Source: a virus. Taken from it: DNA of 64,000 nt. Made by a program: the position numbers and the translations under genes. Each line of letters starts with the position of its first letter. Within the stretch, counting starts at the first letter, position 1. Shown one piece after another: positions 11,497 to 42,344 of this stretch. The notes beneath the pieces were generated by a model. It did not search any database, was not told the origin of the DNA, and saw only the letters and a list, made by a program, of their open reading frames with translations. The stretch spans positions 3,855-67,854 of the IMG/VR virus record IMGVR_UViG_3300037102_000029; one strand, 5' to 3'.

Positions 11497-11503
11497 GAGA
11501 GTT

Positions 11504-13012: not shown

Positions 13013-13023
13013 GGTAATTGAAA

Positions 13024-13542
13024 ATGGCACAAGCTTGTACACCTACGATAATAACCTTGTCAGGATGTCCTCATTGCGCGAACTTAGAATCAATGCTCAA
13101 TAACGCCCAAATCAAATACACTGTTGATATGTCCCAGGCCTGCCAGTGCTATCCCTGCGCGGTGCTTTGCGACGGCTCGCACGTCACGAGTTGCGGCGGC
13201 AATGCTGAGAACGATGTCTTCGCAGCGATCCAGAAGTCGATTGCGGCAACGACAACAAAGACGTCAACAACTGCCCCCCTAAGTACTACTACTACAACCC
13301 CCGCCAGCGCCGCCAGCGTCACAACTACTCCGGCTTGGAGGACTACCAAATGGTCTAATGCACTGTCAGTCGATTGGGGTGCAAAGAACCCACTGCCTAC
13401 AATCGCGCAGACTGCAGCAGGGTACGAACCGCCTGACGTCTCGCTCACGCCGGTATTGCCAGTACCCGTTCCGCAAGCAGCAGGACTCACAGTCGCATTA
13501 AGGGATCATAAGAAGATGCCGATAGCCAGAAAAGTTGCGTAA
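13024..13542 (+). CDS. Glutaredoxin-like (CPHC) Cys-rich protein with Thr/Pro-rich tail
   Basis: IITLSGCPHCANLESMLNNAQIKY is a glutaredoxin/NrdH-type N-terminus; YP cis-Pro-like motif in CQCYPC; GAGGT SD. Confidence 0.6.
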   Translation: MAQACTPTIITLSGCPHCANLESMLNNAQIKYTVDMSQACQCYPCAVLCDGSHVTSCGGNAENDVFAAIQKSIAATTTKTSTTAPLSTTTTTPASAASVTTTPAWRTTKWSNALSVDWGAKNPLPTIAQTAAGYEPPDVSLTPVLPVPVPQAAGLTVALRDHKKMPIARKVA

Positions 13543-13557
13543 CAGGAGAAAACACAA

Positions 13558-15126
13558 ATGGTCGAAACTTCGTATCCGTTCAGAAAGCCAGGAGATACTA
13601 ACCCTTTCGGTGCCACATTGACCGAGAACCAATGGGCTCAATTCAGCCGATACTTGATAGGAACCGGCGTTATGTCGGTAAGCTTCAACGATAACCTGGG
13701 GGAGTTGGAAGTAACTGCAGGCACGCTGCCATTGACAGTGGATATCGACACGGGTGCAGCGGCCATCCAGGGGCATTATTATCAAAATAATGCGACGAAC
13801 ACGCTTACGCTTAACGCGAACCTGGCGTCCGGCATTCGCGCTGACCTAATAGCGCTCGAATGCAAGTGGGGATTAAACGCAGGGATCACCGCGATAGTAG
13901 TACAAGGAACTAACGGTCTACAGTATCCATCAACTGACCCGCGATCCGGCAACCCAATGCCGCCGCAACCAGTTCAAACAGAGGGCGTCAGATGGCAACT
14001 CCCCCTCGCTCAGGTCAATATGGTTAACGGACATACGACGATTGTGGACACGGATATCGTTGACCTACGAAACTTCGTCGGCGTACAGGCGACGCAAAGC
14101 AACTCGGTAGTCGTGGCGATGCCTAATGCTCGTTCCACTATGAAGCAAAATGCCGACTTTCAGATTCCCGCATCTGCAGGATTTATAGATGCAGACGAGA
14201 TCATAAACGAAGCCTTTTCAGTACTACCGGCATGTGGTGGAACGGTCATGCTCAGTGAGGGCGACTGCATCATCTCGGACAGTATCAGTCCAGTGATGGG
14301 TGCGAACCTCATCGGCTGCGGATCACAAACCACGATCACCTTGTCGGGCCTCGCTCCAGCAGGAACTCCGATGATAGTAGCTGGTTATGCGGGTGCGACG
14401 ATCCGCGACATGGCACTCTTTGGTGGTGGTAGTACGTCAAGTATCTACACCACAACGCCGGTCACTACCGGACTTGGCAATCAAGGCGTTCTTGTCACGA
14501 CTGGTAGCGTGCAACTCCTCAACTTAACCATCACCGGGGCGCAGGATTACGGCATTGACGTGACAAGTGGCGCAACGAGCAATGTAGTAATCAAGGACTG
14601 CACAATAACCTACGCATACGGCGACGGTATCTATTATCAGGGCGCTCTCGGAATCGTTGCTGACAACAAGATATCATACTGTGGCGACTGCGGGATACAC
14701 CTTGCTGCGACAGCCACAGGTGGTGCTCAAGCCAACAAGTTTTCAGGAAACCTCGTAACGTATTGCGGGTTGCACGGTATAATTGTTGACGGGACTGCAG
14801 CAGGTGCCATTGTAGGATGGTATAACATGATCAGTAACAACGAGATCGGACAATGCGGAATGGCTGCCACTGGTTCTCCGTCGTGTATAAACTTGATAGG
14901 TGCAGGTATCAGATCTACGTCTTTAATTGGAAACTATGGGTGGACTGCTAACGCGCCATACACGAAATATGGAATCGGCATTTCAAGTAACGCAGTGCAA
15001 GACACGCGAGCGGTTGGTAACGATATGTATGACGCATCCGGAGGAACCGGCTCAAAGGACATTATCCTAAACGGGGCCACTCTTAGCGGCCTTTCGCTAA
15101 ACCTTTACAACTCGTATCAAGCGTAA
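13558..15126 (+). CDS. Tail spike/fibre with right-handed beta-helix (pectin lyase-like)
   Basis: N-terminal phage attachment domain (LTVDIDTGAAAIQGHYY, RADLIAL, QLPLAQV, DIVDLR), then GGTVMLSEG and repeated GI...N/D-x-I parallel beta-helix turns. Confidence 0.8.
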   Translation: MVETSYPFRKPGDTNPFGATLTENQWAQFSRYLIGTGVMSVSFNDNLGELEVTAGTLPLTVDIDTGAAAIQGHYYQNNATNTLTLNANLASGIRADLIALECKWGLNAGITAIVVQGTNGLQYPSTDPRSGNPMPPQPVQTEGVRWQLPLAQVNMVNGHTTIVDTDIVDLRNFVGVQATQSNSVVVAMPNARSTMKQNADFQIPASAGFIDADEIINEAFSVLPACGGTVMLSEGDCIISDSISPVMGANLIGCGSQTTITLSGLAPAGTPMIVAGYAGATIRDMALFGGGSTSSIYTTTPVTTGLGNQGVLVTTGSVQLLNLTITGAQDYGIDVTSGATSNVVIKDCTITYAYGDGIYYQGALGIVADNKISYCGDCGIHLAATATGGAQANKFSGNLVTYCGLHGIIVDGTAAGAIVGWYNMISNNEIGQCGMAATGSPSCINLIGAGIRSTSLIGNYGWTANAPYTKYGIGISSNAVQDTRAVGNDMYDASGGTGSKDIILNGATLSGLSLNLYNSYQA

Positions 15127-15437
15127 ACGATGGTTTAGGAGGCGTTATAAAATCCCTCGCGGTGTTTATGTTCATAAAAAGGGTATTCGCCATCCTCACG
15201 CAGGCAGTCACGCAGCTAGACCCGGTGCTCGAGGAGTACGACCGAAGGCGCACCACCCCCATAAAAGTTATGTACATCGCCGTGGATATCATATTAAACG
15301 AATTGCGCCATATAGAACCGGAATTAAGCATAAAGCTTACGTCCACAAGCGCGGATATAAGATCAAAAGGGTCATGCCGTATAGACGCGGATATCACTTA
15401 AAACATAAGAGAATTGGCAGGTAAAGGAGGTGAAAAA

Positions 15438-15677
15438 ATGACCGAAGATAAACTAGAACAGGAACAAGAACACGAAGAAGCTCGAATAAAGGCAGAAGGT
15501 TTGATTGAATCTGCTGCAGCGTCGGCGCGAGACTTAATAGATGATGCAGCTACTCGCGCCATGCTGCTTATTGCGGAAGCAGTCGAGAGAGCGAAAGAGC
15601 TGCTTCATGAGGCGGCCGTAGCTGAAGCTGAACGCTTAAAGCTAGAGAGATCACGAGATGACCCCAACAAAAAGTGA
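15438..15677 (+). CDS. Small coiled-coil protein with 11-aa Ala repeats (DivIVA-like periodicity)
   Basis: AEGLIESAAAS/ARDLIDDAATR/AMLLIAEAVER/AKELLHEAAVA; strong SD AAGGAGGTGA before ATG 15438. Confidence 0.6.
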   Translation: MTEDKLEQEQEHEEARIKAEGLIESAAASARDLIDDAATRAMLLIAEAVERAKELLHEAAVAEAERLKLERSRDDPNKK

Positions 15678-16167
15678 AACGACGGCAGCCGAGGAACTGC
15701 TTGCTGCGGCCAAAGTAGCTAAAGAAGAGATGATTTCAGCTGCCGAGACTGCGCGAGAGAAGGTTAAGAACGCTTGCGATCAAGCGCTATATGACCTCGA
15801 CCGGGCGGGTCCTACTGACCGGCGACAGCTGAACGGCAGTTATCGGTGGGACCGTTCAGAGGGCATTGAAATGCGCACTGGTAAACTGGAAGTTGGCCAA
15901 GCTAAAAGGGGAGAGCAGATCATCGGATTGATCGATGACGTTGCCACTTTAAAAGACGTAATGACTGAGCAGAGCAACCGAATGACAACGCTGCGAGAAC
16001 TCATCCTCGAAGTAAAAGACGCATGCACCGTTCGGATTGACGCACTTAAAGACGATACACGAAAGGACAAGATAAGGAACCAGCAATATGTTATCGGACT
16101 CGTGGTTTCATTCGTTGTCACGGTCGCATTATCTATCCTGTTCGGGTATGCACATTTCGTTAGATAG
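15658..16167 (+). CDS. Coiled-coil protein with C-terminal transmembrane helix (XhlA/holin-like)
   Basis: Coiled coil followed by YVIGLVVSFVVTVALSILFGY; lysis-module position. Confidence 0.55.
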   Translation: MTPTKSETTAAEELLAAAKVAKEEMISAAETAREKVKNACDQALYDLDRAGPTDRRQLNGSYRWDRSEGIEMRTGKLEVGQAKRGEQIIGLIDDVATLKDVMTEQSNRMTTLRELILEVKDACTVRIDALKDDTRKDKIRNQQYVIGLVVSFVVTVALSILFGYAHFVR

Positions 16168-16175
16168 GGGAACCA

Positions 16176-16610
16176 ATGGCACTTTATAAACATAAACTGC
16201 ATCCGCACAAACCCGTTAACTCAAATGACCGTTTCACAAGCGAGCAGATAGGCTTTAACGCGAAATTGGCTGTTTGGCTTACGCAGCACGTAGGTTCTAT
16301 GTGGACGGCCTACCTGTTCACGGTAATTTGTTTTATCGGTTTAGGTGCGATACTTGGATGGCTCCCGAACACGTTGTATTGGATCATAATGTGGCTCACA
16401 TCTTCGTTCCTTTCGCTTACCATCCTGCCGATCATCATGGTCGGTCAAAACATCCTCGGCCGAAAGTCAGAGATGCAGGCAGACGAACAGTTCAAGACCA
16501 CGCAGAAGACCTACCATGACATAGAAGAGACTGGCAAGCACTTGTCCGCGCAGGATGATGAGCTGTTAAAGCAGACGAAACTGTTACTCGAGTTGTGCAA
16601 ACATGACTGA
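16176..16610 (+). CDS. DUF1003-like membrane protein
   Basis: VGSMWTAYLF...FLSLTILPIIMVGQN matches the DUF1003 signature; two TM helices. Confidence 0.7.
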   Translation: MALYKHKLHPHKPVNSNDRFTSEQIGFNAKLAVWLTQHVGSMWTAYLFTVICFIGLGAILGWLPNTLYWIIMWLTSSFLSLTILPIIMVGQNILGRKSEMQADEQFKTTQKTYHDIEETGKHLSAQDDELLKQTKLLLELCKHD

Positions 16611-17100
16611 CACTCGCTATTTAGGCGCGATGACGATGGGTGTTAATGACTCCCTCGTTGAGGTTACTGCAGCGATAGCAGGCTTAACTATTGCCCTGCA
16701 AAACGCTAGACTTGTAGCCTTAGCAGCACTCATTACAGGCCTAGCTGGATCGTTGAGCATGGCGGCAAGCGAATACCTCGAAAAAGAGACTGAAGAAGTC
16801 TTCGATAAAAACGTTAAAAGTCCTGCAGGCGCATCCATACGAACCGGCCTCCTGTATTTCGGGATCGCGATGGCCCTTATTATTCCCTTTTTATTGCTGC
16901 AGAGCTACGTAGCGGCACTCACCTGCACACTAGCTATTGCGTTTACCATCGTCGTCGGATTCACAATATATATCACGAAGCCTGAAGATAGGTATTTTTG
17001 GAAAGAGTTTCCGAAGCGAATCACATTATCATTTGGGATTGCCGCAATAGCATTTTTGCTTGCATACGGACTGCGGCTAGTCTTAGGAGTTTCAATGTGA
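16603..17100 (+). CDS. VIT1/CCC1-family metal (Fe/Mn) transporter
   Basis: GVNDSLVE...AG...GLAGSLSMAASEYL signature; about five TM helices. Confidence 0.85.
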   Translation: MTDTRYLGAMTMGVNDSLVEVTAAIAGLTIALQNARLVALAALITGLAGSLSMAASEYLEKETEEVFDKNVKSPAGASIRTGLLYFGIAMALIIPFLLLQSYVAALTCTLAIAFTIVVGFTIYITKPEDRYFWKEFPKRITLSFGIAAIAFLLAYGLRLVLGVSM

Positions 17101-17101
17101 G

Positions 17102-17121
17102 ATTTAAATGGAGGTGATAAA
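17102..17121 (+). promoter_or_regulatory. 20-bp translation-initiation cassette, copy 1 (SD GGAGGTGAT)
   Basis: ATTTAAATGGAGGTGATAAA is identical at 17102-17121 and 17334-17353, each 1 nt before an ATG. Confidence 0.8.
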
Positions 17122-17122
17122 G

Positions 17123-17311
17123 ATGGTTAGTGAAGAAGCCTTTCGCGTAGCCTGCAAGACCGCTGGCGCGACACAAGTCTCGGAAGCAGCTGCTAAAGCT
17201 GCGATCGAGGTGTTAATCAACAAGCAGGTTGCACTCGCCCAGGCTGCAGTTGCAGCAATGCAAGCCGCAGGACGCACGCGGGTAGAACCTGAAGATGTAC
17301 CTACAGCTTAG
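17123..17311 (+). CDS. Archaeal-type histone-fold protein 1 (62 aa, truncated alpha3)
   Basis: KTAGATQVSEAA...AAGRTRVEPEDV aligns with HMf-type KDAGAERVSDDA...HAGRKTIKAEDI; perfect SD. Confidence 0.8.
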   Translation: MVSEEAFRVACKTAGATQVSEAAAKAAIEVLINKQVALAQAAVAAMQAAGRTRVEPEDVPTA

Positions 17312-17333
17312 AGGGGTAACGCCCTTCTTTTTT
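17312..17333 (+). terminator. Short hairpin plus T-tract after histone 1
   Basis: AGGG-GTAACG-CCCT followed by TCTTTTTT. Confidence 0.45.
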
Positions 17334-17354
17334 ATTTAAATGGAGGTGATAAAA

Positions 17355-17573
17355 ATGGCAACCAAGACACAGATCGTATTTGATCCAGCTACAGGAATGG
17401 GCTGGCTTCCAGCGATAGTCGTAGTTCTGACATTCTTAGTGTTTACAGTCAATTCAGTAGGTCAATATTTCGTCTTAACAACGGTGCAAGCTGCGTTCGT
17501 TGGCTTTATAGCAACAGTATTGGCAGGACTCGTAACGCTCTTCACGACGATGGAAGTGCCAGTAGTAGACTAA
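17355..17573 (+). CDS. Two-TM small membrane protein (holin candidate)
   Basis: Two hydrophobic helices; last clear gene of the late operon; SD cassette copy 2 upstream; A/T tracts at 17574-17600 resemble a terminator. Confidence 0.55.
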   Translation: MATKTQIVFDPATGMGWLPAIVVVLTFLVFTVNSVGQYFVLTTVQAAFVGFIATVLAGLVTLFTTMEVPVVD

Positions 17574-17601
17574 AAAATAGTCTACTTTTTTATTTTTTTA
17601 G

Positions 17602-17991
17602 GTGACAAAACTAAACAGACCGATGGCTTACAAACCCTGCAAACCCGTCTCGTCTTGCCCTATAGAAGCAATCAAGTGCTTCAGGATCAATATCAAACTG
17701 GCAAGAATCAAGCAAGCGATGGTCGGCCACGAACTAGCTAAGAAAGTCCAGGAGTGCAGCGAAACCAAGTTCACGTCAGAATACGAGCATCTTCTTTATC
17801 ATCCTTATAAAGACCATAATCATCAGTTGGTTATTACAATCGTGGACGATCTCGCTGAGATCAGTCCAAGAATAGACGACGTGTATCACGCTCGCCCGCG
17901 CAACTGCCTACGCAGGCGTTATCAGAGCATCAAGGATGTTCTCTGTGAAGATTGGCGAGCGCAGTCTTATTATGCTAAAGTGAAACGTTAA
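17602..17991 (+). CDS. Hypothetical protein
   Basis: 129-aa ORF filling the gap to the convergent minus-strand block; start uncertain, no recognisable motif. Confidence 0.35.
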   Translation: MTKLNRPMAYKPCKPVSSCPIEAIKCFRINIKLARIKQAMVGHELAKKVQECSETKFTSEYEHLLYHPYKDHNHQLVITIVDDLAEISPRIDDVYHARPRNCLRRRYQSIKDVLCEDWRAQSYYAKVKR

Positions 17992-18013
17992 CGCAGTGCA
18001 ACAGAGACAGCAG

Positions 18014-18400
18014 TCATCGAGGAGGACACGGTTTCCATTTTGGGTTTAACAAATCCCACCACGGAAACGCCTTGTCTTCTTCACTCTCTTTTCTGAAATG
18101 CTTACCGCATGCTTCTCCGTTATTACCGTAAGGTTTCCAGAGGGCGCACCCTTCAGGCTTAACAGCGTGTATTCCGCATCTTCCTTGAGTCCAAAACCTG
18201 CAAGGTTTTCCTTGTTTGAAGGTCCACGGCTTCGCTTCAGACATCTCAACATTCACAACATAAAGTTCCTTGAAGACATCCAGGGGAATCTCTAGGTATT
18301 CTGCGATCCGTGCTACCTCATCGGTTCCTAACGCGCAGGGCGTTGAGAAACCGGCACAACAGACACCGAAGCAATTTTCACAAGCGGAGTATTCTACCAT
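18014..18400 (-). CDS. YkgJ/CxxCxxCC-family Zn/Fe-chelating protein
   Basis: CENCFGVCC...PCRFW...CGIHAVKPEGCALWKP signature. Confidence 0.85.
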   Translation of the reverse strand: MVEYSACENCFGVCCAGFSTPCALGTDEVARIAEYLEIPLDVFKELYVVNVEMSEAKPWTFKQGKPCRFWTQGRCGIHAVKPEGCALWKPYGNNGEACGKHFRKESEEDKAFPWWDLLNPKWKPCPPR

Positions 18401-18452
18401 AATAAAAAGAAAGGGAACGCAAACGGGCTCCCGACCGCTCGCGCCTTTTAAA

Positions 18453-19595
18453 CTACTTGGTTATTTCACTGCATACGCAGATCGGTAACGCTGAACTAAC
18501 TGATGCCGCGTAACTAGCATTGCCTGCAAACGAAGCATAGTAGGTGCGAATCCCTGGCGACGTGAAGGACGTTTGGTACGTCAGCGTTGAATACGCTGCT
18601 TTGTCCTGATACGTTGCACCTCCAAGAGTGTGGTAAATCTTTATAGGCTCCGCAATAGGCGCAGCAGTCCCACTTTTTAATGTGGCAATAAACGTCGCCG
18701 GTTTATTGACCCCGTAACACGACTTGTCAGCGGTTATGGTAATCTGGGTCGCTTTCTTAGTCGGTGTAGGTGGTGTGGGGGTGGGTGTCGGCCCAAGCTG
18801 ACTCTCCATCGCGATAGTCCAACTGTCGCTCGCGTATTGCCGGATGTACGGTCGCGGGATCAAACCGAAGCCGCCACTGAATTTGGCGTATCCTTTGCCC
18901 CATCCTGTCCCCCAAGAGTTGAGGGTGATGTAGTAGTCGGCGTCAGTAAAGCCAGTTACGCCAAACAACGCATTGCAGTGACCGCCGATTGATGCGCCGC
19001 TTGGCATATCAATGATCCCATCGCTGCCGACGTCTTCGTATTGCTGGTAGACTGGCATCCCGTAAACCACTGGAAGCTTCGTCACGCAGAGGCAGTTGTC
19101 TATGTTCGCAATCATCTGAGTTGTTGAGGTGCCGTCAAGCAAGTAGTAGCTCGTAGACTCGGCTTTCACTGCGTCGCTGACTGCTTTCGCTGGCGGTGCG
19201 GTATCGAACTGGCTTATATCATAAGCCCAATCAGTTTCAGGTGCTACGCCATCCTGAACAGTTGCGTGAATACCATCTCTGATATTACAGCCATTATCTC
19301 CAGGATAATCGCCGCCAATAATCCTCGCATCGCGATAGACCAGTAGCCTGCAGCCTAGAACTGCCTCGATTCCTGCCTTAATCTGACACGCCTCAAAGGC
19401 TGACGTGGTTCCGTGTGCTACGCACGCGCCTAGTTGTCCTTGATTCTTGACTGTGCTGACTAAATTGGTTATGTCCGTTGGCACCAACGTTTCAGGTGCC
19501 ATCAACTTCACGCGATCTTCGTATCTGTAATCTAAATGTGACGGCATCTGAGGTTTCCACCCCAGGCCGTGACCTTTCTTAGTAACGGTTATCAT
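18453..19595 (-). CDS. Papain-like (C1A) cysteine peptidase with PT linker and C-terminal Ig-like domain
   Basis: VKNQGQLGAC (oxyanion Gln, catalytic Cys), GGHC (His), NSWGTGWG (Asn). Confidence 0.92.
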   Translation of the reverse strand: MITVTKKGHGLGWKPQMPSHLDYRYEDRVKLMAPETLVPTDITNLVSTVKNQGQLGACVAHGTTSAFEACQIKAGIEAVLGCRLLVYRDARIIGGDYPGDNGCNIRDGIHATVQDGVAPETDWAYDISQFDTAPPAKAVSDAVKAESTSYYLLDGTSTTQMIANIDNCLCVTKLPVVYGMPVYQQYEDVGSDGIIDMPSGASIGGHCNALFGVTGFTDADYYITLNSWGTGWGKGYAKFSGGFGLIPRPYIRQYASDSWTIAMESQLGPTPTPTPPTPTKKATQITITADKSCYGVNKPATFIATLKSGTAAPIAEPIKIYHTLGGATYQDKAAYSTLTYQTSFTSPGIRTYYASFAGNASYAASVSSALPICVCSEITK

Positions 19596-19611
19596 CTATC
19601 TATCATCCTCC

Positions 19612-19917
19612 TTACCAGAATCGATAAACAAACTGCTTTGAAAAATCGACTTGGGCCTCCCCGTGAAATGGCCCGTGGAACACACTGCTAAATGTTGATA
19701 TCTTTGGTTCCGGTGCGGGTGCGGCGCCCTCTGCGTCTTTCACCATCCGGTCAACGCGCTCTCTTTGCAGATGTAGTTCAGCGCAGACGATTTTTAACCG
19801 TATGCGTGTGCGCGTCGGATCAATCCCATTATGCAAATCCACCAGGACTGATTCAAGTTCATCCGCTAGTTTTTCAAATGCGAAACATTCTGTATTCAAT
19901 TCATCCTTGAGACTCAT
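19612..19917 (-). CDS. Hypothetical protein
   Basis: 101-aa ORF with AGGAGG SD, in the co-oriented block. Confidence 0.55.
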   Translation of the reverse strand: MSLKDELNTECFAFEKLADELESVLVDLHNGIDPTRTRIRLKIVCAELHLQRERVDRMVKDAEGAAPAPEPKISTFSSVFHGPFHGEAQVDFSKQFVYRFW

Positions 19918-20107
19918 TTCTTTGTGGTTCCTCCTTTCTTTTTGGACATTCCTTTCTCCTTAACACCAGCCGCCTCGAGCGCCTTCATCGCTGCACAAAT
20001 CGGCTGATGTTCACAATCGCTCGGAGAGGCACAATCGCACGCCAACATCTCATCTATTAAGTGTCCTTGCACACAACAGGTTGCTTTCATTTCTTCTTTT
20101 TACCCCT

Positions 20108-20305
20108 TCATCCCACTAAATGCCACGCAACGACGGCCATCACTACGATTATCAGGCCGACAAGTGTGCGTATCCAACGTTCGCCATCGAATACGACATT
20201 ATGATACTGGCCGCCCTGGATCAACACACTTCCAATGCCATCAGCGATCACGTAGACGCCGCAAAGGCCGAGCACTAATAGTACCACATCAATCTGTGTC
20301 ATCAT
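20108..20305 (-). CDS. Small two-TM membrane protein
   Basis: Two hydrophobic segments; overlaps the upstream stop (ATGA coupling). Confidence 0.55.
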   Translation of the reverse strand: MMTQIDVVLLVLGLCGVYVIADGIGSVLIQGGQYHNVVFDGERWIRTLVGLIIVVMAVVAWHLVG

Positions 20306-20796
20306 AAGACTTCATTCCAATTTTGTAATCCGTCCCCATTCTCAACCAGCTCACGTGCGCCAACCTCATCCTTATTCACTGGTCTGGGCAGCTCCGATGG
20401 ATCGAACATTCTAAACGAGGGCTGTCCGCGAGCATAAAGTTCATCCAGATCATGCCACTTTATTACATAGACCTTATTTTTAGGCCGCTTGTGGACTTGG
20501 ATTGCCAAAAAACCACGTCGTCCGGAGAGCTGTAGATACTCATTAATACGCTCGAACTGATTATGTGGAAACATCTTCGCGAAGTTGTATCGTTTCGCAG
20601 GCACCCGACTCTTACACTCTATCGCTATATGCCAACTTGGATACGGTGAGTCAACGGTGATATCACAGCCGATAAAATTGGGGATGTTCTGATACTCGCG
20701 TCGCACGTACGCGGGAATACGATATTCCACACAGTAGTCAATCAGCGATGTGCGGATAAAACTTTCAAAAGATGATCCTTTCCTTGCCACGCGCAC
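20302..20796 (-). CDS. hjc: Holliday junction resolvase, Hjc-like PD-(D/E)xK nuclease
   Basis: RKGSSFE...CDITV...AIECKS...QFERI...GFLAI matches the Hjc/RecU-type motif order. Confidence 0.75.
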   Translation of the reverse strand: MRVARKGSSFESFIRTSLIDYCVEYRIPAYVRREYQNIPNFIGCDITVDSPYPSWHIAIECKSRVPAKRYNFAKMFPHNQFERINEYLQLSGRRGFLAIQVHKRPKNKVYVIKWHDLDELYARGQPSFRMFDPSELPRPVNKDEVGARELVENGDGLQNWNEVL

Positions 20797-21023
20797 CCCA
20801 TTGCATTATCGTTCGGCATTCGACTTCCGTAGAAGTAATAAACGTACCGCACGTTCGTCACTTCATCAAAACGATACATGCGGCTAACTTCGTGCCGTCG
20901 CCAGAGGGTATTGACGTTGCGTAGGACTGTCGTTTTTGCGAGTCCCGTCATTCGCGCCAACTCTTCGAGCGACATTCCCCTGCCAGTCTCTTTCAGCACG
21001 TTCCGAACATCTTCCTGTCCCAT
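20742..21023 (-). CDS. Winged-helix DNA-binding protein
   Basis: GMSLEELARMTGLAKTTVLRNVNTL HTH (IclR/ArsR-like). Confidence 0.8.
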   Translation of the reverse strand: MGQEDVRNVLKETGRGMSLEELARMTGLAKTTVLRNVNTLWRRHEVSRMYRFDEVTNVRYVYYFYGSRMPNDNAMGCAWQGKDHLLKVLSAHR

Positions 21024-21223
21024 TTTGTTTTTCTTGTTTTACACCCTGCACGCCGCACAACCGAGCCATAACGGGGCTGAAGCCATAATCGCTAGAATAG
21101 CGACCGTGGCGCTGCAGTAAATTCCCGTGAAGGCGTGGTCAAGCCGTGTTGCTTTGAAATTTTGCCACGGATGGCGCCATTCCAATTTGCGGGGTGGTAT
21201 CCACGAAAGCCTTGTAACACCTC

Positions 21224-21535
21224 CTATTTTTTTGATAACTTTAAAATACCTTTGCCGTTGTCTTCAACCTTAATTTTCTTAGCCTTGCGGTCCGCCTCTT
21301 CTTTTGCATCAACGATACGCACAAGTGGCGGCTCGCATCCCTCGCGTCTGCCAATCTCCTCCGCTGCATCGAGCTGCTCTTGTAGCTCTTCATCAACAAG
21401 GGTGAGTGTGTGACACGCTTCGCACCGCACAAGCTTCTTGCCGAAAAACTCTTCCCTAATCTCCTCGTCAGGTTCCTGTTCAGTAATTATAACTATTGGC
21501 GCTTCAGCACCACATATACAAATTACGTTAGTCAT
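21224..21535 (-). CDS. Zn-ribbon protein
   Basis: CICG...CEACH Cys pairs; coupled to neighbours. Confidence 0.55.
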   Translation of the reverse strand: MTNVICICGAEAPIVIITEQEPDEEIREEFFGKKLVRCEACHTLTLVDEELQEQLDAAEEIGRREGCEPPLVRIVDAKEEADRKAKKIKVEDNGKGILKLSKK

Positions 21536-21744
21536 TTTTGACCTCTGACGTCCTTGATAGTCGCCACAAGTTTAAGGTCGTTAATCCATTCGTTCATGTG
21601 GATAAAGAACGCATTATGAAAGGCTTGATCGACTTGAACTTGTGCAACACCCTCCCCCTGATATACGATTACGAGGTAATCGTTCAGATGTTCCTTCACC
21701 CACGCTTCCGCCTCAACTTTTACAGCCGGTATTTCGATTTCCAT
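21532..21744 (-). CDS. Hypothetical protein
   Basis: 70-aa ORF with GGAGG SD and ATGA overlap. Confidence 0.55.
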   Translation of the reverse strand: MEIEIPAVKVEAEAWVKEHLNDYLVIVYQGEGVAQVQVDQAFHNAFFIHMNEWINDLKLVATIKDVRGQK

Positions 21745-21759
21745 TTCCTGCCTCCGTCA

Positions 21760-22038
21760 TTAATTTTGACCTAGAACTGCATCCTTGTTCTGTGCCGCTG
21801 CGTCCGCATCGACCATCCTAATCTTCGTCTGCGGCGGCACTTGAGCAAGTTCCATTATTGGTAGCTTATCTACAAGTTTCTTTTCCCAACGCCAGCGCCT
21901 CATAAACTCCCCGAGATTAATCTGATATATTACCATCGCAAGCGCTTTGAACTGCTGCTCGTTTTGCGGCTGAGGGAGGTTGAGCGTTATTGGTTTATAT
22001 ACTGCGGGAATCTCGTCATTATGCTTTTTTGACGCCAT
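21760..22038 (-). CDS. Hypothetical protein
   Basis: 92-aa ORF with GAGGAG SD. Confidence 0.55.
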   Translation of the reverse strand: MASKKHNDEIPAVYKPITLNLPQPQNEQQFKALAMVIYQINLGEFMRRWRWEKKLVDKLPIMELAQVPPQTKIRMVDADAAAQNKDAVLGQN

Positions 22039-22222
22039 CGTGACACTCCTCTCCTATCCGGTCAGGATCGTTGATTAATCCTAAATGGTTCACGTATTTT
22101 TCAAGCGATGTGAGCGCACCCTTCAGTTCTCGGACTTCACCTTCAACCTCTCTCAAACGCTTATTCACTAACTCTTCAAGCGTGGGTGCTTTCTTTCTCT
22201 GATACGAATCTTCTTCTCGCGT

Positions 22223-22393
22223 TTAATCTCCCCCTAGGTTCCATACACCTAACAGCGGATTTGTTTGCTTATGTATTATGTCTTGCTTTGTAATACAAAA
22301 AGTACAGAGGAGACTTGGGTTGTCTCCTCCGAGCGAACTATGCACTAGAAGCATTGGCCGTCCACAGTTCCGACACGGTATCGGAGTGGTCAC
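22223..22393 (-). CDS. Small Zn-ribbon protein (56 aa, below the ORF-track cutoff)
   Basis: GTG start: MTTPIPCRNCGRPMLLVHSSLGGDNPSLLCTFCITK... with two CxxC pairs. Confidence 0.55.
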   Translation of the reverse strand: MTTPIPCRNCGRPMLLVHSSLGGDNPSLLCTFCITKQDIIHKQTNPLLGVWNLGGD

Positions 22394-22405
22394 GACTAGA
22401 GAACC

Positions 22406-23521
22406 CTACTGAATCTCCGAACAAACGCAGATCGGCAATACCGCACTTGTCGATCCCAGATAGTTCTCATCACCGGCAAACGAGGCATAGTAGTAGCGAA
22501 TCCCGGGAGACGTGAACGACACTGGCACCGTCAGCGTCGAGAATGCAGTCTTATCGTTGTACCGAACGCCGTTCAGTGTGTGGTAGAATGTCACTTCTCT
22601 CGGGATTGGCGTGTTGCCGTCCTTCAATGTTACGGTGAATGTGACGGGCTTGTTAACACCTACACATCTTTTGTCTGAAGTGACACCTATCGTCGTTGGT
22701 TTCTTTGTTACCGGGGATGGTGGTGCTGGTCCAATGCCGTTAGGGGGGTGGTTCTTCTGCAAGTTAGCGACGATTGAATCGAAGCCACAGGCCTGATTCT
22801 GCGCTCTGCTTGACGCTGTTCCACCCCAAACGTCGAACCGCGTTACTGAGCATCCCAATGCTACCAATGAGTCAATGATCGACTCGTAGCTAGGCTGCGC
22901 TCCGTTGATGCTGTTCTGAAGGATGTCGTTGTCGCCCTTGAACTTCTTGTTCGGCGCATTTGCGTAATTCGGCGCGTCTTTCGAGTAGTAGCATTTTGAA
23001 TGTTCCGCTGCATCGCGCCAAGCACCGGCTAAAACGCCGTTCGCTTTGCCTTTAGTCGCGCTGGCCCCATCGGTGATGTATCCAACCTCGGAAGGATAGT
23101 AACACTCCCAGAGATTCATCACGGTTCCAACATCGGAATAGATGTTCTGCCATAAGCCACACTGGTCGCAGTTGTAGTTGATGTAGCCGAGTCCTAGCCC
23201 CTTAATGAAGCTCGGATCACCGGCTCTGCCACCTTCTGAGCTGAGTGTCGGCCAGCCGGCCGCCTTGCAGGATTGCAGGAAGCTCGTAAAGTTGCCAATA
23301 GGCGATTGAATCTGACCGCCTGCCCAGATATCCATCTCGATATCGAGCACCGGCTTGACTCCAAGACCCTTGAGATACGCGAGCTGACTCGCGTAATTGT
23401 TACCTGCACCGCCGGTTGAAACCAACTCGACGGTATTTATGTGCCAGTCGCGTATATAGGCCGGGACTTCCCCGATGCTTCCTGCCGTTACTGAGACACT
23501 ATAGTCTAAACTGACTCCCAT
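22406..23521 (-). CDS. Putative TIM-barrel glycoside-hydrolase-like protein with C-terminal Ig-like domain (endolysin candidate)
   Basis: Alternating beta/alpha pattern with SSEGG and LWECY acidic motifs; C-terminal domain closely resembles that of the C1A peptidase. Confidence 0.5.
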   Translation of the reverse strand: MGVSLDYSVSVTAGSIGEVPAYIRDWHINTVELVSTGGAGNNYASQLAYLKGLGVKPVLDIEMDIWAGGQIQSPIGNFTSFLQSCKAAGWPTLSSEGGRAGDPSFIKGLGLGYINYNCDQCGLWQNIYSDVGTVMNLWECYYPSEVGYITDGASATKGKANGVLAGAWRDAAEHSKCYYSKDAPNYANAPNKKFKGDNDILQNSINGAQPSYESIIDSLVALGCSVTRFDVWGGTASSRAQNQACGFDSIVANLQKNHPPNGIGPAPPSPVTKKPTTIGVTSDKRCVGVNKPVTFTVTLKDGNTPIPREVTFYHTLNGVRYNDKTAFSTLTVPVSFTSPGIRYYYASFAGDENYLGSTSAVLPICVCSEIQ

Positions 23522-23525
23522 TGGA

Positions 23526-23711
23526 TCACTCTCCTATGTCGTCTGCTAGAACTGTTACTCGCCTTCCAGCGGTCATTCTGGCGACGGCTTTCGTTGCTTC
23601 GTCGTTCATTAGCGTTAGCATCCACGCCTGAAATTTCGTGAGGGCTGCTTTGCTAACCTTGTGTGCGCCTGCGTCTTTTAGCGCACTTCTAAACATAGCT
23701 TCCGATATCAT
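23526..23711 (-). CDS. Archaeal-type histone-fold protein 2 (61 aa, truncated alpha3)
   Basis: KDAGAHKVSKAA...AGRRVTVLADDI matches HMf-type KDAGAERVS...RKTIKAEDI; SD AAGGAGGTGA. Confidence 0.88.
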   Translation of the reverse strand: MISEAMFRSALKDAGAHKVSKAALTKFQAWMLTLMNDEATKAVARMTAGRRVTVLADDIGE

Positions 23712-23922
23712 CTTTGATCTCACCTCCTTTATTTGCTAATTCAATACCATAAGACATTCCTTTTCTCGACAGAGCACGACAAGAATCGCAAAGTGTTCTA
23801 GGGCGCCCTCGGTGATTGTTCCGGTACGCCCCGGCCCCATGCGTCCAGTTTGTGCGAACAAACATTTGCCCACACGGACACCGAACCAGTTCCGTCTCTT
23901 GCGGATGTGTGCGTCCCGTCAT
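23689..23922 (-). CDS. Zn-finger protein
   Basis: CPCGQMF...GRPRTLCDSC pattern. Confidence 0.55.
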   Translation of the reverse strand: MTGRTHPQETELVRCPCGQMFVRTNWTHGAGAYRNNHRGRPRTLCDSCRALSRKGMSYGIELANKGGEIKDDIGSYV

Positions 23923-23924
23923 AC

Positions 23925-24164
23925 CTACTCCGTATGCACCCTGTATTCCTGGCCGTCAAGGAAGAAGCTTAGTTCAATCCTCCCGACGCTCGCGTTGATG
24001 TCCACTGCTTTTTCTTTGAACTCCATTACGAGCCCCTCCGCGAGCATCCGCATAAGCGCCGGTGTGCGTTCCTTTTCTGGCAGTTCCCTTGCGAAATGAA
24101 AGACGCCTTTGTCGTCAGCCACTACGGCGTTGTCTAAGGGTGAGTTATAAATGGAATACATCAC
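23925..24164 (-). CDS. Hypothetical protein
   Basis: 79-aa ORF coupled to the upstream gene. Confidence 0.5.
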   Translation of the reverse strand: MMYSIYNSPLDNAVVADDKGVFHFARELPEKERTPALMRMLAEGLVMEFKEKAVDINASVGRIELSFFLDGQEYRVHTE

Positions 24165-24814
24165 TTACCTGCCGGTTCAAACTGTCGCGAGCTACGCAAC
24201 CAGTCTTTGACTGTTGGATATTCATTTCCAGTAGTAGCACTGACTTTGTTCTTGACAACGATCTGCAGGTGCCTCCCAACTAAATCATCACTTTCGATGT
24301 CCAGTGGAGGGTTCGCACCAAAGATCGCCGACAGTAATGCCGTCAACTGGCTCTTCTTATGGCGGCTCATTGAAGTCCTGCCTTCAAGAGCTGCGCCGCC
24401 TTCAGTGACATAGAGAACGTGCATGAAGCACGCTTGCATCGGCTCGCCAGTTGCAGGGTCCGAATGGAAGTTGTCAGGTTCTATAGCCTGCCACGCCCTG
24501 TCGATCTTCACCTCATACATACCCTCTTCCCAGAACGACTTGCGAGGTACTGGCTTTAGGCTGAATGTCTGATGCTCAGGAAAACCCTCTTCGTCAGCCT
24601 CCATTCGCTGCGCGGGTGTTGCCTGCGCCGGCTGCGATCGTACAACCGTTTCGTTGCGGTAAGGTTTCTGGACTGGCGCTTCTGCGCGAATCTCTTCGGG
24701 CTTTATCACGCGCTTGTCTGGCTGTGGCTTGCCGTGAGATATTTTGAAGCCGTTCGTTGTTGCTTCGCGTTCTTCGTCTTCAGATGGAACAAACTCTTCG
24801 TTTACTTTTGCCAT
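24161..24814 (-). CDS. Putative OB-fold ssDNA-binding protein (DUF669-like)
   Basis: EEGMYEVKI...KSQLTALLSAIFG...DLVGRHLQIVV...YPTVKD resembles phage SSB-like families; acidic N-terminal extension. Confidence 0.55.
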   Translation of the reverse strand: MAKVNEEFVPSEDEEREATTNGFKISHGKPQPDKRVIKPEEIRAEAPVQKPYRNETVVRSQPAQATPAQRMEADEEGFPEHQTFSLKPVPRKSFWEEGMYEVKIDRAWQAIEPDNFHSDPATGEPMQACFMHVLYVTEGGAALEGRTSMSRHKKSQLTALLSAIFGANPPLDIESDDLVGRHLQIVVKNKVSATTGNEYPTVKDWLRSSRQFEPAGK

Positions 24815-24948
24815 TTTCTTCTATTCCTTCATTTTGTTTCCCGTAGGAAATAGCAGAGTGAAAGGTTATGGCGACGGCCTCGAACCTTTGGAGATGATTC
24901 GTGAGGTAAGTTACCTGCTAGGGAATAACTAACCGTCGTTTCCATCCC

Positions 24949-25437
24949 TCACTCTACCAACGAGTGCTTCCAAGTGCGTTCTCTTACTATTAAAGAAATC
25001 GTAGAGATTGACACTTCGTATTCTTCCGCTATTTCTGTTTGAGTTGCGCCCATATCATAGAAGAACCGGATGTGGTTCACTTCTCTTTGGGTTAGCTTTG
25101 CGGTTCCGCTTTGTTCGGCGGTCGGGCCTTTGGCATTGAAGCGGCCCTTCTTGATGCAATCCTGCATGTTATCTTTTTGTGTTCCCACAAATAGATGATC
25201 CGGATTCACGCAAGCCGGCGTATCGCAGCGATGCAAAACAAACAAGCCGTTCGGAATCTCACCGTTAACTAGCTTATACATAATTCGATGCACCCGTTCC
25301 TCGTGGCCATTCCGGCTCATTTTTCCGTAGCCATGGTCATCCTTAACGCCGTTCCAAAGCCAGCAAGACCCCCTATGGCCGCTTACTTCGATCTGTGAGA
25401 AAAGTCTTGGCTCTAATGGTTGGATCGCTCCCATCAT
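24949..25437 (-). CDS. HNH (His-Me finger) homing endonuclease with C-terminal HTH
   Basis: CWLWNG...GYG...HRIMY...VLHRCDTPACVNPDHLFVGTQKDNMQD, then AKLT...QTEIAEEYEVS. Confidence 0.93.
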   Translation of the reverse strand: MMGAIQPLEPRLFSQIEVSGHRGSCWLWNGVKDDHGYGKMSRNGHEERVHRIMYKLVNGEIPNGLFVLHRCDTPACVNPDHLFVGTQKDNMQDCIKKGRFNAKGPTAEQSGTAKLTQREVNHIRFFYDMGATQTEIAEEYEVSISTISLIVRERTWKHSLVE

Positions 25438-41589: not shown

Positions 41590-41610
41590 TGATACTATAT
41601 AAAGCTAGTA
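41590..41610 (-). promoter_or_regulatory. TATA box heading the minus-strand early region
   Basis: GCTTTATATAGTAT on the minus strand; similar GCTTTATAGTAT at about 27690-27679. Confidence 0.55.
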
Positions 41611-41919
41611 TATATGACGTGATTGATAGATCGATCAGAGCAAGCAACGAGCATTGAATGATGATAACTGATATAATCCTAAGTTGTAGATAGAAGCCAT
41701 ATTTACCCTTTTTGGCAAATCAAAACGTCAACTCCCCGTACGATTTCTATTTCGGCATTTAAAGACCGTCCTGCCAATCTCTCATATCGTGACTCTTATC
41801 ATCTTAGAGTTATATCGTAAATTGTGTCGTATTGTAGAATCAAATCTAAACTTACGAGTGATGAACTTGCATTGATTAGCACAAAAAGGTTAATATGAAG
41901 CAAGCCTATATAAAGAACA

Positions 41920-42341: not shown

Positions 42342-42344
42342 TAT

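What the first reader, a model, noticed from the sequence alone, without database searches (positions are those of the whole stretch)
17123..23711. Virus encodes two paralogous, alpha3-truncated histones in different transcription units
Seen: 17123-17311 (+, late operon) and 23526-23711 (-, early block) share M(V/I)SExxFRxAxKxAGAxxVSxAA and end 2-3 residues after the R-x6-D motif, so helix 3 is nearly absent; both lack the His used in HMf tetramers. Histone 2 is basic (9 K/R vs 7 D/E; keeps HKVS and RxT). Histone 1 is near neutral (6 vs 7; QVS, RTR), so DNA-contact residues are altered. Established: alpha3-truncated prokaryotic histones (face-to-face types, Bd0055) assemble differently from hypernucleosomal HMf. 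Inference: an early DNA-wrapping histone plus a late, DNA-binding-weak partner that heterodimerises to cap or strip chromatin before packaging, i.e. a viral chromatin switch.
Basis: partly seen in the sequence, partly recalled or inferred. Interest (0 to 1): 0.88.

Follow-up and report, generated by a model that had tools for sequence, protein, structure and literature searches.

The report
Two mini-histones in a tailed virus
An uncultured 68-kb head-tailed virus from peat carries two real genes for 61-62-residue histone-fold proteins descended from archaeal histones but lacking the third helix; only one of them is shared with related viruses, so the proposed two-histone "chromatin switch" is not supported.

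Summary
Observation confirmed. Both ORFs exist at the stated coordinates and have strong ribosome-binding sites. They are 38-42% identical and their relatives are under purifying selection. Both fold with high confidence (pLDDT about 94) into a histone fold with a full-length helix 2 and a 3-residue helix-3 stub.

A profile of the family matches archaeal nucleosomal histones (HPhA, HMfA/B) at E about 2e-9. It matches Bd0055/HBb and the face-to-face histone HTkC far worse (E 0.09 and 0.26). So these are HMf-type histones that lost helix 3, not members of the described alpha3 superfamily.

The family is small: 24 clusters at 90% identity, all 53-65 residues, all metagenomic. Every context I could inspect is a tailed virus.

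The switch idea fares badly. All 15 other records carry a single copy. The 99%-complete sister genome keeps histone 2 but lacks histone 1, which sits in a 3-gene accessory cassette. Histone 1 branches with a different viral lineage. Its "altered" DNA-contact residues are common in single-copy members. The "early" label for histone 2 is unsupported. A heterodimer model got only weak support.

New detail: the histone gene is usually next to a papain-like peptidase or related enzyme gene. The host is unresolved. Tailed-virus histone-fold proteins were catalogued in 2024-2025. This scan had already noted histone 2's relative on other DNA (e1-6184264).

The parts
17123..17311 (+). Histone 1 (H1), 62 aa, net charge -1, divergent accessory copy
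   Evidence: Translation. AF2 pLDDT 94.2. Best structural match is HPhA, Z 8.1, rmsd 1.6, 62 aligned. phmmer to HPhA E 8.8e-4. NCBIfam archaea_histone E 2.4e-5, 24.6 bits, below the 50-bit cut-off.
17103..17121 (+). Translation-initiation region of H1 with SD GGAGGTGAT (17110-17118). It is one copy of an exact 19-nt repeat.
   Evidence: Sequence. The repeat occurs at 17103-17121 and 17335-17353, 2 matches vs 0.01 expected.
17310..17338 (+). Hairpin plus T-run, terminator-like, overlapping the H1 stop codon (17309-17311)
   Evidence: Scan. Sequence.
16176..17311 (+). Accessory cassette: DUF1003 membrane protein (16176-16610), VIT1-like membrane protein (16603-17100), H1
   Evidence: Pfam. The cassette is absent from the 99%-complete sister genome G005 by DNA search and ORF order.
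17355..17573 (+). 72-aa small hydrophobic protein that follows H1. Its homologue follows the single histone in L025.
   Evidence: ORF. tblastn 48% identity at L025 3657-3824, 143 nt after the histone. The membrane nature is read from the sequence only.
23526..23711 (-). Histone 2 (H2), 61 aa, net charge +2, the copy shared with related viruses
   Evidence: Translation. AF2 pLDDT 93.8. HPhA Z 7.5, rmsd 1.6, 61 aligned. 97% identical copy in G005. NCBIfam archaea_histone E 2.2e-5, 24.8 bits.
23720..23730 (-). SD AAAGGAGGTGA of H2, tied for the longest anti-SD match among 70 scored starts
   Evidence: Sequence. SD survey.
22406..23521 (-). 371-aa enzyme-like protein with a C-terminal Ig-like domain, starting 4 nt after the H2 stop
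   Evidence: Pfam Big_3_5 E 3.3e-7, 31.2 bits, below the 35.5-bit cut-off. Terminator-like site at 22331-22305.
18453..19595 (-). 380-aa papain-family peptidase with the same C-terminal Ig-like domain. Its homologues lie just downstream of the histone gene in related viruses.
   Evidence: Pfam Peptidase_C1 E 1.6e-10. Synteny in 9 of 14 loci.

Best explanation
Both genes encode small histone-fold proteins that descend from archaeal nucleosomal (HMf/HPhA-type) histones. They kept alpha1, L1, a full-length alpha2, L2 and the Arg-Asp loop clamp. They lost nearly all of alpha3 and the residues HMf uses to join dimers.

Inferred, not shown: each forms the obligate histone-fold dimer and binds DNA through its L1/L2 loops as a small architectural protein. 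Neither can grow into an HMf-style hypernucleosome.

H2 is the ancestral, conserved copy of a small family confined to tailed viruses. It is normally single-copy and usually sits beside a papain-like peptidase or a related enzyme gene. H1 is a fast-evolving second copy from another branch of the same viral family. It rides in a 3-gene accessory cassette that the sister genome lacks. The two therefore most likely act independently, not as an obligate pair. The strong ribosome-binding sites suggest high expression.
For: Fold: AF2 pLDDT is 93.8 and 94.2, with alpha2 at 21-48 and the alpha3 stub at 56-58. All 50 rows listed in each VIA search are histone-fold entries by their titles (my reading), best HPhA at Z 7.5 and 8.1. 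The Foldseek rows shown (ranks 1-50, with gaps) are H4 chains or H4-containing entries by their titles (my reading), TM about 0.8, but E only 0.02-0.08.

Ancestry: the 11-sequence profile matches HPhA at 2.2e-9, HMfA at 3e-9 and HMfB at 2e-8, ungapped over residues 10-60. It matches Bd0055/HBb at 0.09 and HTkC at 0.26. NCBIfam archaea_histone is the best family for 6 of 6 members tested.

Conservation: R51 and D58 are invariant. dN/dS is 0.12-0.30.

Family size and context: 13 representatives among 1.84 billion and 24 clusters at 90% identity. Terminase, MuF, portal and capsid genes lie on the contigs.

Copy number: 15 of 15 other records have one copy. G005 lacks H1 and the cassette.

Tree: H1 groups with P0007, P0012, P0013 and P0014 (support 93/95). 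H2 groups with the G005 copy (100/99).

Synteny.

SD strength: H2 11 nt, capsid gene 10 nt, H1 9 nt, of 70 starts scored.

Presence in RNA libraries: contigs from peat RNA libraries cover H1 in 3 of 4 runs laid and the bin holding H2 in 4 of 4. Contigs only, and DNA carry-over is possible.
Against: No DNA binding, dimerisation or expression timing was measured.

The family lacks the Lys that follows the clamp Arg in HMf (mostly Val here). It mostly has Glu where HMf has a later loop Lys. Several members are neutral or acidic, range -4 to +6. DNA binding could therefore be weak or absent in some members.

Pfam PF00808 fails on both proteins. NCBIfam scores (18-28 bits) are under the 50-bit cut-off. 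Foldseek E-values and VIA Z of 7-8 are in a range the tools call common for small helical models.

Only one other record is near complete, so 'single copy' is firm for one genome only.

The H1 clade rests on 61 columns and long branches, and the tool warns of long-branch attraction.

A heterodimer was weakly favoured by modelling, so independence is not proven.
Confidence: 0.6

Rival explanations
1. Host-chromatin interference. The host is a histone-bearing archaeon. The viral helix-3-less histones bind next to host histone dimers or heterodimerise with host monomers. They then act as capstones that stop or dismantle hypernucleosomes on host or viral DNA, for example to free viral DNA for packaging.
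For: The proteins keep the HMf-type dimer core and full alpha2, aligning ungapped to HMfA/B and HPhA. They lack alpha3 and the His of the dimer-dimer interface. Erkelens et al. 2023 (PMC10151503, passages read) propose that variants lacking dimer-dimer or stacking contacts act as roadblocks or capstones. In relatives the gene sits among packaging and late-looking genes. Four perfect TTTATATA boxes cluster at 41596-42621, and the window holds 6 vs 1.42 expected. This is compatible with archaeal promoters.
Against: The host is unknown. TerL, capsid and portal match bacteriophages best, at 28-36% identity. Only 3 of 401 genomes of the one archaeal phylum I could sample have a capsid homologue, at 24-28%. 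No provirus or host link was found. No interaction with any host histone was modelled or measured.
Confidence: 0.15
2. First reader's switch. H2 wraps viral DNA early. H1, made late, heterodimerises with H2 to cap or strip that chromatin before packaging.
For: The two copies lie on opposite strands in different units. H1 is less basic, -1 vs +2. The H1 clade as a whole lacks the Arg45, Trp30 and C-terminal Gly-Glu that are invariant in H2-like members. The heterodimer model got weak support: score 0.48, best of 3 controls 0.00. That mark was reached by 58 of 80 solved complexes and 2 of 110 mismatched pairs. At 0.60 or under it was reached by only 7 of those 80 and by both mismatches that passed. 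The runs agree in at least 96% of contacts and the partner's pLDDT is at least 79. My own alignments were used, so the counts hold only roughly. Histone heterodimers are solved, so the pass may be from memory.
Against: H1 and its cassette are missing from the 99%-complete sister genome, which keeps H2. All 15 other records have one copy. An H1-like protein (P0007) is the only copy on a 51.6-kb contig. H1 is not sister to H2 in the tree. H2 lacks the tetramer His and alpha3, so wrapping is doubtful. The residues called 'altered' in H1 are common in the family. No timing data exist. The RNA-library data are contigs only.
Confidence: 0.07
3. Not a DNA-binding protein at all. It is a histone-fold protein-protein module (as in TAFs, NF-Y, CENP-S/X) that partners or regulates neighbouring virus proteins such as the adjacent peptidase or enzyme.
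For: Net charge is 0 or negative in 7 of 18 distinct family sequences. The family lacks the HMf loop Lys residues. The gene is adjacent to a papain-like peptidase gene in 9 of 14 loci, which is 5 of 8 distinct histone sequences. TAF entries score as well as histones in the structure searches, e.g. 1h3o_D at Z 7.5 and 7.9.
Against: Sequence similarity is specifically to DNA-binding archaeal histones, including the L1 'AGAxxVS' loop and the L2 Arg-x-Thr/Arg...Asp loop that contact DNA in HMf. Most H2-like members are basic, up to +6. Adjacency may only reflect module order.
Confidence: 0.12
4. H2-like members form a closed face-to-face-like tetramer despite their HMf ancestry, and wrap about 50-60 bp as proposed for FtF histones.
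For: In all six H2-like sequences aligned in A5, Arg45 lies 6 residues before the clamp Arg51. That is the spacing between R48 and R54 of the FtF profile in Schwab et al. 2024 (section 7 read; alignment). The invariant C-terminal Gly-Glu could supply the carboxylate that the FtF Arg contacts. This is my inference.
Against: The FtF Asn (profile N52) is not conserved here. Alpha2 is 4-5 residues longer than in HTkC, with 56 vs 61 aligned. Sequence similarity to HTkC is E 0.26.
Confidence: 0.08

Closest known systems
Archaeal nucleosomal histones HPhA, HMfA, HMfB (PDB 1ku5, 1b67, 1a7w)
   Same: Closest by sequence (family profile E 2e-9 to 2e-8, ungapped over residues 10-60) and by structure (Z 7.5 and 8.1, rmsd 1.6, 61-62 aligned). 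Same alpha1-L1-alpha2-L2 lengths, the AGAxxVS L1 loop and the Arg...Asp clamp.
   Different: Alpha3 is reduced to about 3 residues. Ala replaces the interface His. The loop Lys after the clamp Arg is mostly Val. The proteins are encoded by tailed viruses. Scores are below the curated Pfam and NCBIfam cut-offs.
Alpha3-truncated histones of Schwab et al. 2024 (PMC11390915): face-to-face HTkC (9f2c), bacterial dimers Bd0055/HBb (8cmp), and their 'phage histones'
   Same: A 3-4-residue alpha3, small size and no tails. Per that paper, these assemble differently from hypernucleosomes (passages and section 7 read).
   Different: Alpha2 is not shortened. Sequence similarity is weak (E 0.09 and 0.26). 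There is no C-terminal tetramerisation helix, and the R...D motif is present, unlike their phage histones.
Viral histone-fold proteins of Caudoviricetes catalogued by Liu et al. [quoted passage not shown]
   Same: Histone-fold proteins mined from IMG/VR tailed-virus genomes, some HMf-like (sections 7 and 9 and passages read).
   Different: The paper's text gives no description of an HMf-like form without alpha3, of two copies in one genome, or of linkage to a peptidase gene. Its lists are in supplements I could not open, so I cannot say whether these proteins are in its set.
'Capstone' archaeal histone variants (Erkelens et al. 2023, PMC10151503)
   Same: Variants lacking dimer-dimer or stacking residues, proposed to bind as dimers or to halt hypernucleosome growth (passages read).
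   Different: Those are cellular paralogues with an intact alpha3. Here the helix is deleted and the gene is viral.

Membership tests
Histone fold (helix-loop-helix-loop-helix) | alpha1-L1-long alpha2-L2-alpha3 architecture | tested here: met
   AF2 gives H4-13, H21-48 and a stub at 56-58, with pLDDT 93.8 and 94.2. All 50 listed rows in each VIA search are histone-fold entries by their titles, my reading.
Archaeal nucleosomal (HMf-type) histones | Significant sequence similarity to HMfA/B/HPhA | tested here: met
   Family profile E 2.2e-9 to 2e-8. Single sequences are weaker: H1 8.8e-4, H2 0.49.
Archaeal nucleosomal (HMf-type) histones | Reaches the curated family cut-offs (Pfam PF00808, NCBIfam NF043032) | tested here: not met
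   PF00808 gives no hit for H1 or H2. It hits 4 of 11 members, best E 0.0088. NF043032 scores 18-28 bits against a 50-bit cut-off, 6 of 6 members below it.
Archaeal nucleosomal (HMf-type) histones | Full alpha3 (about 10 residues) and dimer-dimer interface residues that allow tetramers and hypernucleosomes | tested here: not met
   The proteins end 3-4 residues after the clamp Asp. Ala sits at the His position.
Archaeal nucleosomal (HMf-type) histones | RxTxxxxD loop motif | tested here: met
   R51 and D58 are invariant in 11 of 11. Position 53 is Thr in H2 and Arg in H1. Across the family it is T (4), R (5), K (1), V (1).
Alpha3 histone superfamily (Schwab 2024) | Alpha3 of only 3-4 residues | tested here: met
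   DSSP gives a helix at 56-58.
Alpha3 histone superfamily (Schwab 2024) | Alpha2 is 4-5 residues shorter than in nucleosomal histones | tested here: not met
   The alignment to HPhA/HMfA across alpha2 is ungapped. 61-62 residues align to HPhA but only 56-57 to HTkC/HBb.
Face-to-face histones | Predicted or solved torus tetramer; conserved Arg and Asn at the dimer-dimer interface | not tested
   No tetramer was modelled. An Arg with the same spacing is present in H2-like members. The Asn is absent.
'Phage histones' of Schwab 2024 | C-terminal helical tetramerisation domain; no RxTxxxD | tested here: not met
   The proteins are 61-62 aa with nothing after the fold, and R...D is present.
Bacterial dimer histones (Bd0055/HBb) | Sequence and structure kinship with HBb | tested here: inconclusive
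   Profile E 0.09. Z 6.4 with 57 aligned.
Hmf-like viral histone-fold proteins (Liu 2025) | Listed in that survey's clusters | not testable with these tools
The main text names the cluster only.

The most novel reading that the evidence does not exclude
These helix-3-less, HMf-derived viral histones are anti-chromatin weapons. They co-assemble with the host archaeon's histones and cap or break up hypernucleosomes, freeing viral DNA for replication and packaging or de-repressing host DNA. The virus in this window has added a second, more acidic variant with a different interface, which widens or times that activity.
Probability: 0.12. Interest if true: 0.8.

Novelty: new variant of a known kind. 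Interest (0 to 1): 0.45.

Why it matters
Histones in tailed viruses of prokaryotes have been listed from metagenomes, but in the papers I read none was tested at the bench. This family is a clean natural experiment. It is an HMf-type histone that kept the whole dimer core and lost only the helix that joins dimers. That makes the question 'what does an archaeal histone do when it cannot polymerise?' directly testable with two 61-residue proteins. If the host is a histone-bearing archaeon, it would be a first candidate for a virus that manipulates archaeal chromatin with a histone mimic. The fixed position next to a papain-like peptidase gene is an unexplained regularity worth following.

Tried and rejected
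Single sequences gave no hit and the six-frame search of the genome gave none at E<=10. The profile-against-PDB route replaced it.

Word-index homologue searches with single proteins found only near-identical sequences. So did single-protein scans of IMG/VR.

INPHARED tblastn with H2 gave no match at E<=1.

Host inference did not succeed.
- The GTDB scan with H2 found nothing.
- The scan with Ku found one 32%-identical Ku in a Methanosarcinales MAG. That genome has no capsid homologue.
- The capsid protein was found in 3 of 401 genomes of that phylum, at 24-28% identity.
- A tRNA-Ala on the related locus L011 matches 25 of 401 of those genomes, but only over bases 26-73 at 81-85%. Without a bacterial comparison this says nothing.
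- ESM-Atlas neighbours of the peptidase are labelled Viruses/Bacteria.
- Sigma-70-like sites are not enriched (10 vs 11.1). Hairpin/T-run sites are enriched, 20 vs 10.7 with sd 3.5.
- No Rfam family and no tRNA were found in the window.
- SD usage does not separate archaea from Firmicutes.

Record G416 carries H1 but no H2. It equals the window only over 7509-20104 and then diverges at a repeated Ig-domain sequence, so it says nothing about H2.

RNA-library contigs cannot give strand, level or timing, and uncovered parts mean nothing.

I considered a homotetramer job for H2 and a job against a stand-in host histone. The single complex job went to the H1-H2 pair.

I rejected 'recent tandem-type duplication' for H1 because of the tree and the cassette.

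Full report
WHAT IS THERE. The window is bases 3855-67854 of a 67,854-bp IMG/VR virus record that CheckV rates as 100% complete. PHROG profiles identify the large terminase (45846-47324), portal (47331-48899), a head-maturation protease domain, the major head protein (52511-53509), the tape measure (1791-5567) and a minor tail protein. It is therefore a head-tailed virus. Genes run rightward at 1-17.6 kb and 42-64 kb, and leftward at 18-41 kb.

Each ATG follows a long Shine-Dalgarno match: GGAGGTGAT for H1 and AAAGGAGGTGA for H2. In a survey of 70 starts, H2's match (11 nt) ties for the longest. The capsid gene has 10 nt and H1 has 9. H1 is followed by a hairpin and T-run. H2's stop codon lies 4 nt before the start of a 371-aa gene.

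ARE THEY HISTONES? Single-sequence tests are weak.
- Pfam gives nothing for H2 and only TAF at E 0.07 for H1.
- PF00808 finds nothing in the six-frame genome.
- phmmer against PDB sequences gives HPhA at 8.8e-4 for H1 and HMfB at 0.49 for H2.

The family-level tests are clear.
- A full HMMER pass over 1.84 billion representatives with a two-sequence profile found 13 proteins. All but one are 53-64 aa. The exception is a 206-aa double histone at 2e-4.
- Eleven of these align without internal gaps. That profile hits HPhA (2.2e-9), 'Archaeal histone A' (2.7e-9), HMfA (3e-9) and HMfB (2e-8) over residues 10-60 without gaps.
- The NCBIfam model 'archaea_histone' is the top family for 6 of 6 members tested. 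Scores are 18-28 bits, below its 50-bit cut-off.
- PF00808 reaches E<=1 in 4 of 11 members.
- AlphaFold2 with the family alignment gives pLDDT 93.8 (H2) and 94.2 (H1), with identical elements: alpha1 4-13, alpha2 21-48 and a 3-residue helix at 56-58.
- The Foldseek rows shown (ranks 1-50, with gaps) are H4 chains or H4-containing entries by their titles, my reading. TM is about 0.8, but E is only 0.02-0.08.
- In the Foldseek-independent search, all 50 listed rows for each model are histone-fold entries by their titles, my reading. The best is HPhA, at Z 7.5 and 8.1, rmsd 1.6, 61 and 62 residues aligned.
- dN/dS between relatives is 0.12-0.30.

I take the histone fold and protein-coding status as settled.

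WHICH KIND OF HISTONE? Schwab et al. 2024 define the alpha3 superfamily by two features: a 3-4-residue alpha3, and an alpha2 that is 4-5 residues shorter than in nucleosomal histones. Their 'phage histones' also carry a C-terminal tetramerisation helix and lack RxTxxxD (PMC11390915, passages and section 7 read).

Here alpha3 is indeed a stub, but alpha2 is full length. The alignment to HPhA/HMfA is ungapped. The models align over 61-62 residues with HPhA but only 56-57 with HBb and HTkC. Sequence similarity to HBb (E 0.09) and HTkC (0.26) is marginal. R51 and D58, the loop clamp, are invariant.

So this is an HMf-type histone that lost alpha3 on its own. It is analogous to the alpha3 class, not a member of it. 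The His of the HMf dimer-dimer interface is Ala in both proteins.

THE FAMILY AND ITS CONTEXT. A profile search of the 5.8-billion-cluster collection gives 24 clusters. Twenty-three are 53-65 aa. The 24th is a canonical 70-aa PF00808 histone at E 5.6e-5. JGI had named seven of them 'histone H3/H4'.

Scans of IMG/VR brought 14 further loci. Where I looked, they carry terminase, Mu-F-like and portal genes.

tblastn of the window's proteins against these 14 loci shows a regularity.
- A homologue of the papain-family peptidase (window 18453-19595; Peptidase_C1, E 1.6e-10) begins 4-733 nt downstream of the histone gene on the same strand in 9 of 14 loci. That is 5 of the 8 distinct histone sequences.
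- In the window and its two closest relatives, the gene directly downstream is instead the 371-aa enzyme, which shares the peptidase's C-terminal Ig-like domain.
- In L025 the next gene is a homologue of the small hydrophobic protein that follows H1 in the window.
- In L011/L012 neither was found within the locus.
- In L010 the histone lies between a split terminase/MuF and the portal, all on one strand.

H2's position, 17 kb from the head of the leftward block and fused to an enzyme gene, gives no ground for calling it early.

TWO COPIES: A PAIR OR AN ACCIDENT? The family profile finds two copies only in this genome. It finds exactly one in each of 15 other records (5 of 5, 9 of 9, 1 of 1). 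Fourteen of these are fragments, 14-72% complete.

The informative one is G005. It is 66.9 kb, 99% complete, and its capsid protein is 92% identical. It has H2 at 97% identity but no match to window 16176-17530. Its gene order runs straight from the homologue of 15658-16167 to the small membrane protein. So H1 sits in a three-gene cassette with a DUF1003 and a VIT1-like membrane protein. The cassette ends at an exact 19-nt repeat of the translation-initiation region.

In a maximum-likelihood tree, H2 pairs with the G005 copy (100/99). H1 sits on a long branch with P0007, P0012, P0013 and P0014 (93/95). The tool warns about long-branch attraction and only 61 columns were available. P0007 is the only copy on a 51.6-kb contig. 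H1 is thus better read as a transferred or anciently diverged copy than as H2's designed partner.

The H1-bearing genotype is nevertheless common. Exact H1 was seen on 33 contigs and exact H2 on 30.

ARE H1'S DNA CONTACTS SPECIALLY ALTERED? Position n in the family corresponds to n+1 in HMfA/B.
- Position 18 (the L1 Arg in HMf) is Gln in 6 of 11 members, including H2-like ones.
- Position 52 (Lys in HMf) is Val, Thr or Ile in all 11.
- Position 53 is Thr in 4, Arg in 5, Lys in 1 and Val in 1.
- Position 55 is Glu in 9 of 11.
- Net charge across 18 distinct sequences runs from -4 to +6, and 7 are zero or negative.

H1's features are therefore family traits, not a mark of a disarmed partner.

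What does set the H1 clade apart is the loss of Trp30, Arg45 and the C-terminal Gly-Glu, all invariant in H2-like members. H1 alone has Ala at the otherwise near-invariant Phe27. Arg45 lies six residues before the clamp Arg, as does the interface Arg of face-to-face histones. This is my inference and I did not test it.

HETERODIMER MODEL. One job (H2 + H1, each with the family alignment) returned 'weak support'. The score was 0.48 and the best of 3 controls was 0.00. That mark was reached by 58 of 80 solved complexes and 2 of 110 mismatched pairs. At 0.60 or under it was reached by only 7 of those 80 and by both mismatches that passed. The runs agree in at least 96% of contacts and the partner's pLDDT is at least 79. 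My own alignments were used, so the counts hold only roughly. Histone heterodimers are well represented among solved structures, so this shows likeness, not binding.

EXPRESSION AND HABITAT. Fourteen RNA-library runs labelled peat metagenome hold part of 16000-25000, and 4 of them hold 24-56% of the sampled words. When these four were laid, contigs identical to the window cover H1 in X2 (17038-17641) and X3 (17042-17304), and its 3' part in X1. The bin holding H2 has depth in 4 of 4 runs. These are contigs. They show presence in RNA libraries, where DNA carry-over is possible. They show no strand, level or timing.

HOST. Unresolved.
- For an archaeon: the histone's ancestry (nucleosomal histones are said to be exclusive to archaea). 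Four perfect TTTATATA boxes at 41596-42621, with 6 in the window against 1.42 expected and 1 of 100 shuffles reaching 6. Of the 36 leftward-block (17990-41300) products scanned against Pfam and, for 13 of them, PHROGs, 24 matched no family.
- For a bacterium: the best INPHARED matches of terminase, capsid and portal are bacteriophages at 28-36%. Hairpin/T-run terminators are enriched. Ku, DUF6011 and papain-type peptidases have phage or bacterial neighbours.
- I could sample only one archaeal phylum, where 3 of 401 genomes have a capsid homologue at 24-28% identity.

MECHANISM. Shown: the fold, the ancestry, the loss of alpha3 and the interface His, the conservation, the copy-number pattern and the synteny. 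Inferred: dimer formation, DNA binding through L1/L2, inability to polymerise, high expression, and independent action of H1 and H2. The capstone idea for variants without dimer-dimer contacts (PMC10151503, passages read) offers the most interesting extension, but it needs a histone-bearing host.

PRIOR KNOWLEDGE. Schwab et al. 2024 and Liu et al. 2025 (PMC13681535; sections 7 and 9 and passages read) already report histone-fold proteins in Caudoviricetes, including an 'Hmf-like' cluster. The viral-histone review PMC9145170 has no occurrence of 'phage', 'bacteriophage', 'Caudovir' or 'archaeal virus'. My searches found no paper describing an HMf-type viral histone without alpha3, two copies in one tailed virus, or the peptidase linkage. 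This scan had already noted the H2 relative in another genome (e1-6184264) and other phage mini-histones (e1-5894955, e1-5327869).

VERDICT. The histone identity is right. The alpha3-class kinship and the chromatin-switch mechanism are not supported. This is a new variant of a known kind, of moderate interest.

Noticed in passing
window 18453-19595 and 22406-23521; loci L009, L010, L023, L024, L026-L030: The histone gene is followed within 4-733 nt by a papain-family peptidase homologue in 9 of 14 related loci. In the window and its closest relatives it is followed instead by a 371-aa enzyme that shares the peptidase's C-terminal Ig-like domain. The reason for this linkage is unknown.
   Followed up: partly
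window 15101-15424 (+): A 107-codon open frame encodes an extremely basic Lys/Arg/His/Tyr-rich repeat protein. It has no ATG/GTG/TTG start in the window. It is conserved as a 90-aa GTG-started ORF in the sister genome (L020 2186-2458, minus strand). It could be a DNA-condensing protein or a non-canonical start.
   Followed up: partly
window 16176-17353: A DUF1003 + VIT1-like + H1 cassette is present here and absent from the 99%-complete sister genome. It ends at an exact 19-nt repeat of a translation-initiation region (17103-17121 and 17335-17353), a possible recombination joint.
   Followed up: partly
window 41596-42621 (-): Four perfect TTTATATA boxes lie in a 1-kb non-coding, AT-rich stretch between the leftward and rightward blocks. 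Two are followed about 21-24 nt later by GTTAATG. They look like repeated archaeal-type promoters, but this was not shown.
   Followed up: partly
window 39432-40223 (-): A virus-encoded Ku (Pfam Ku E 2e-43) sits near the head of the leftward block. The only GTDB hit by the pattern scan was a 32%-identical Ku in a Methanosarcinales MAG.
   Followed up: partly
L010 4207-5811: In the related virus G001 the large terminase is split into two adjacent ORFs, an ATPase part and a nuclease part. This could be a frameshift, an intein or intron remnant, or a true split.
   Followed up: no
L035 (record G416) beyond locus position 12586: A 20.7-kb record is 99.5% identical to window 7509-20104. It then diverges and later holds an inverted copy of window 22305-22714 (the Ig-domain end of the 371-aa gene). 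This is either a rearranged genotype or a misassembly at the repeated Ig-domain sequence.
   Followed up: partly
ESM Atlas neighbours of H2: A 1,050-member cluster of 66-aa Uroviricota proteins without Pfam families scores 0.90 to H2 by language-model features. It may be another, much larger phage mini-histone family. HMMER did not link it to this one.
   Followed up: no
L011 14436-14508: A related histone-bearing virus carries a tRNA-Ala(TGC) between its portal gene and the next gene.
   Followed up: partly
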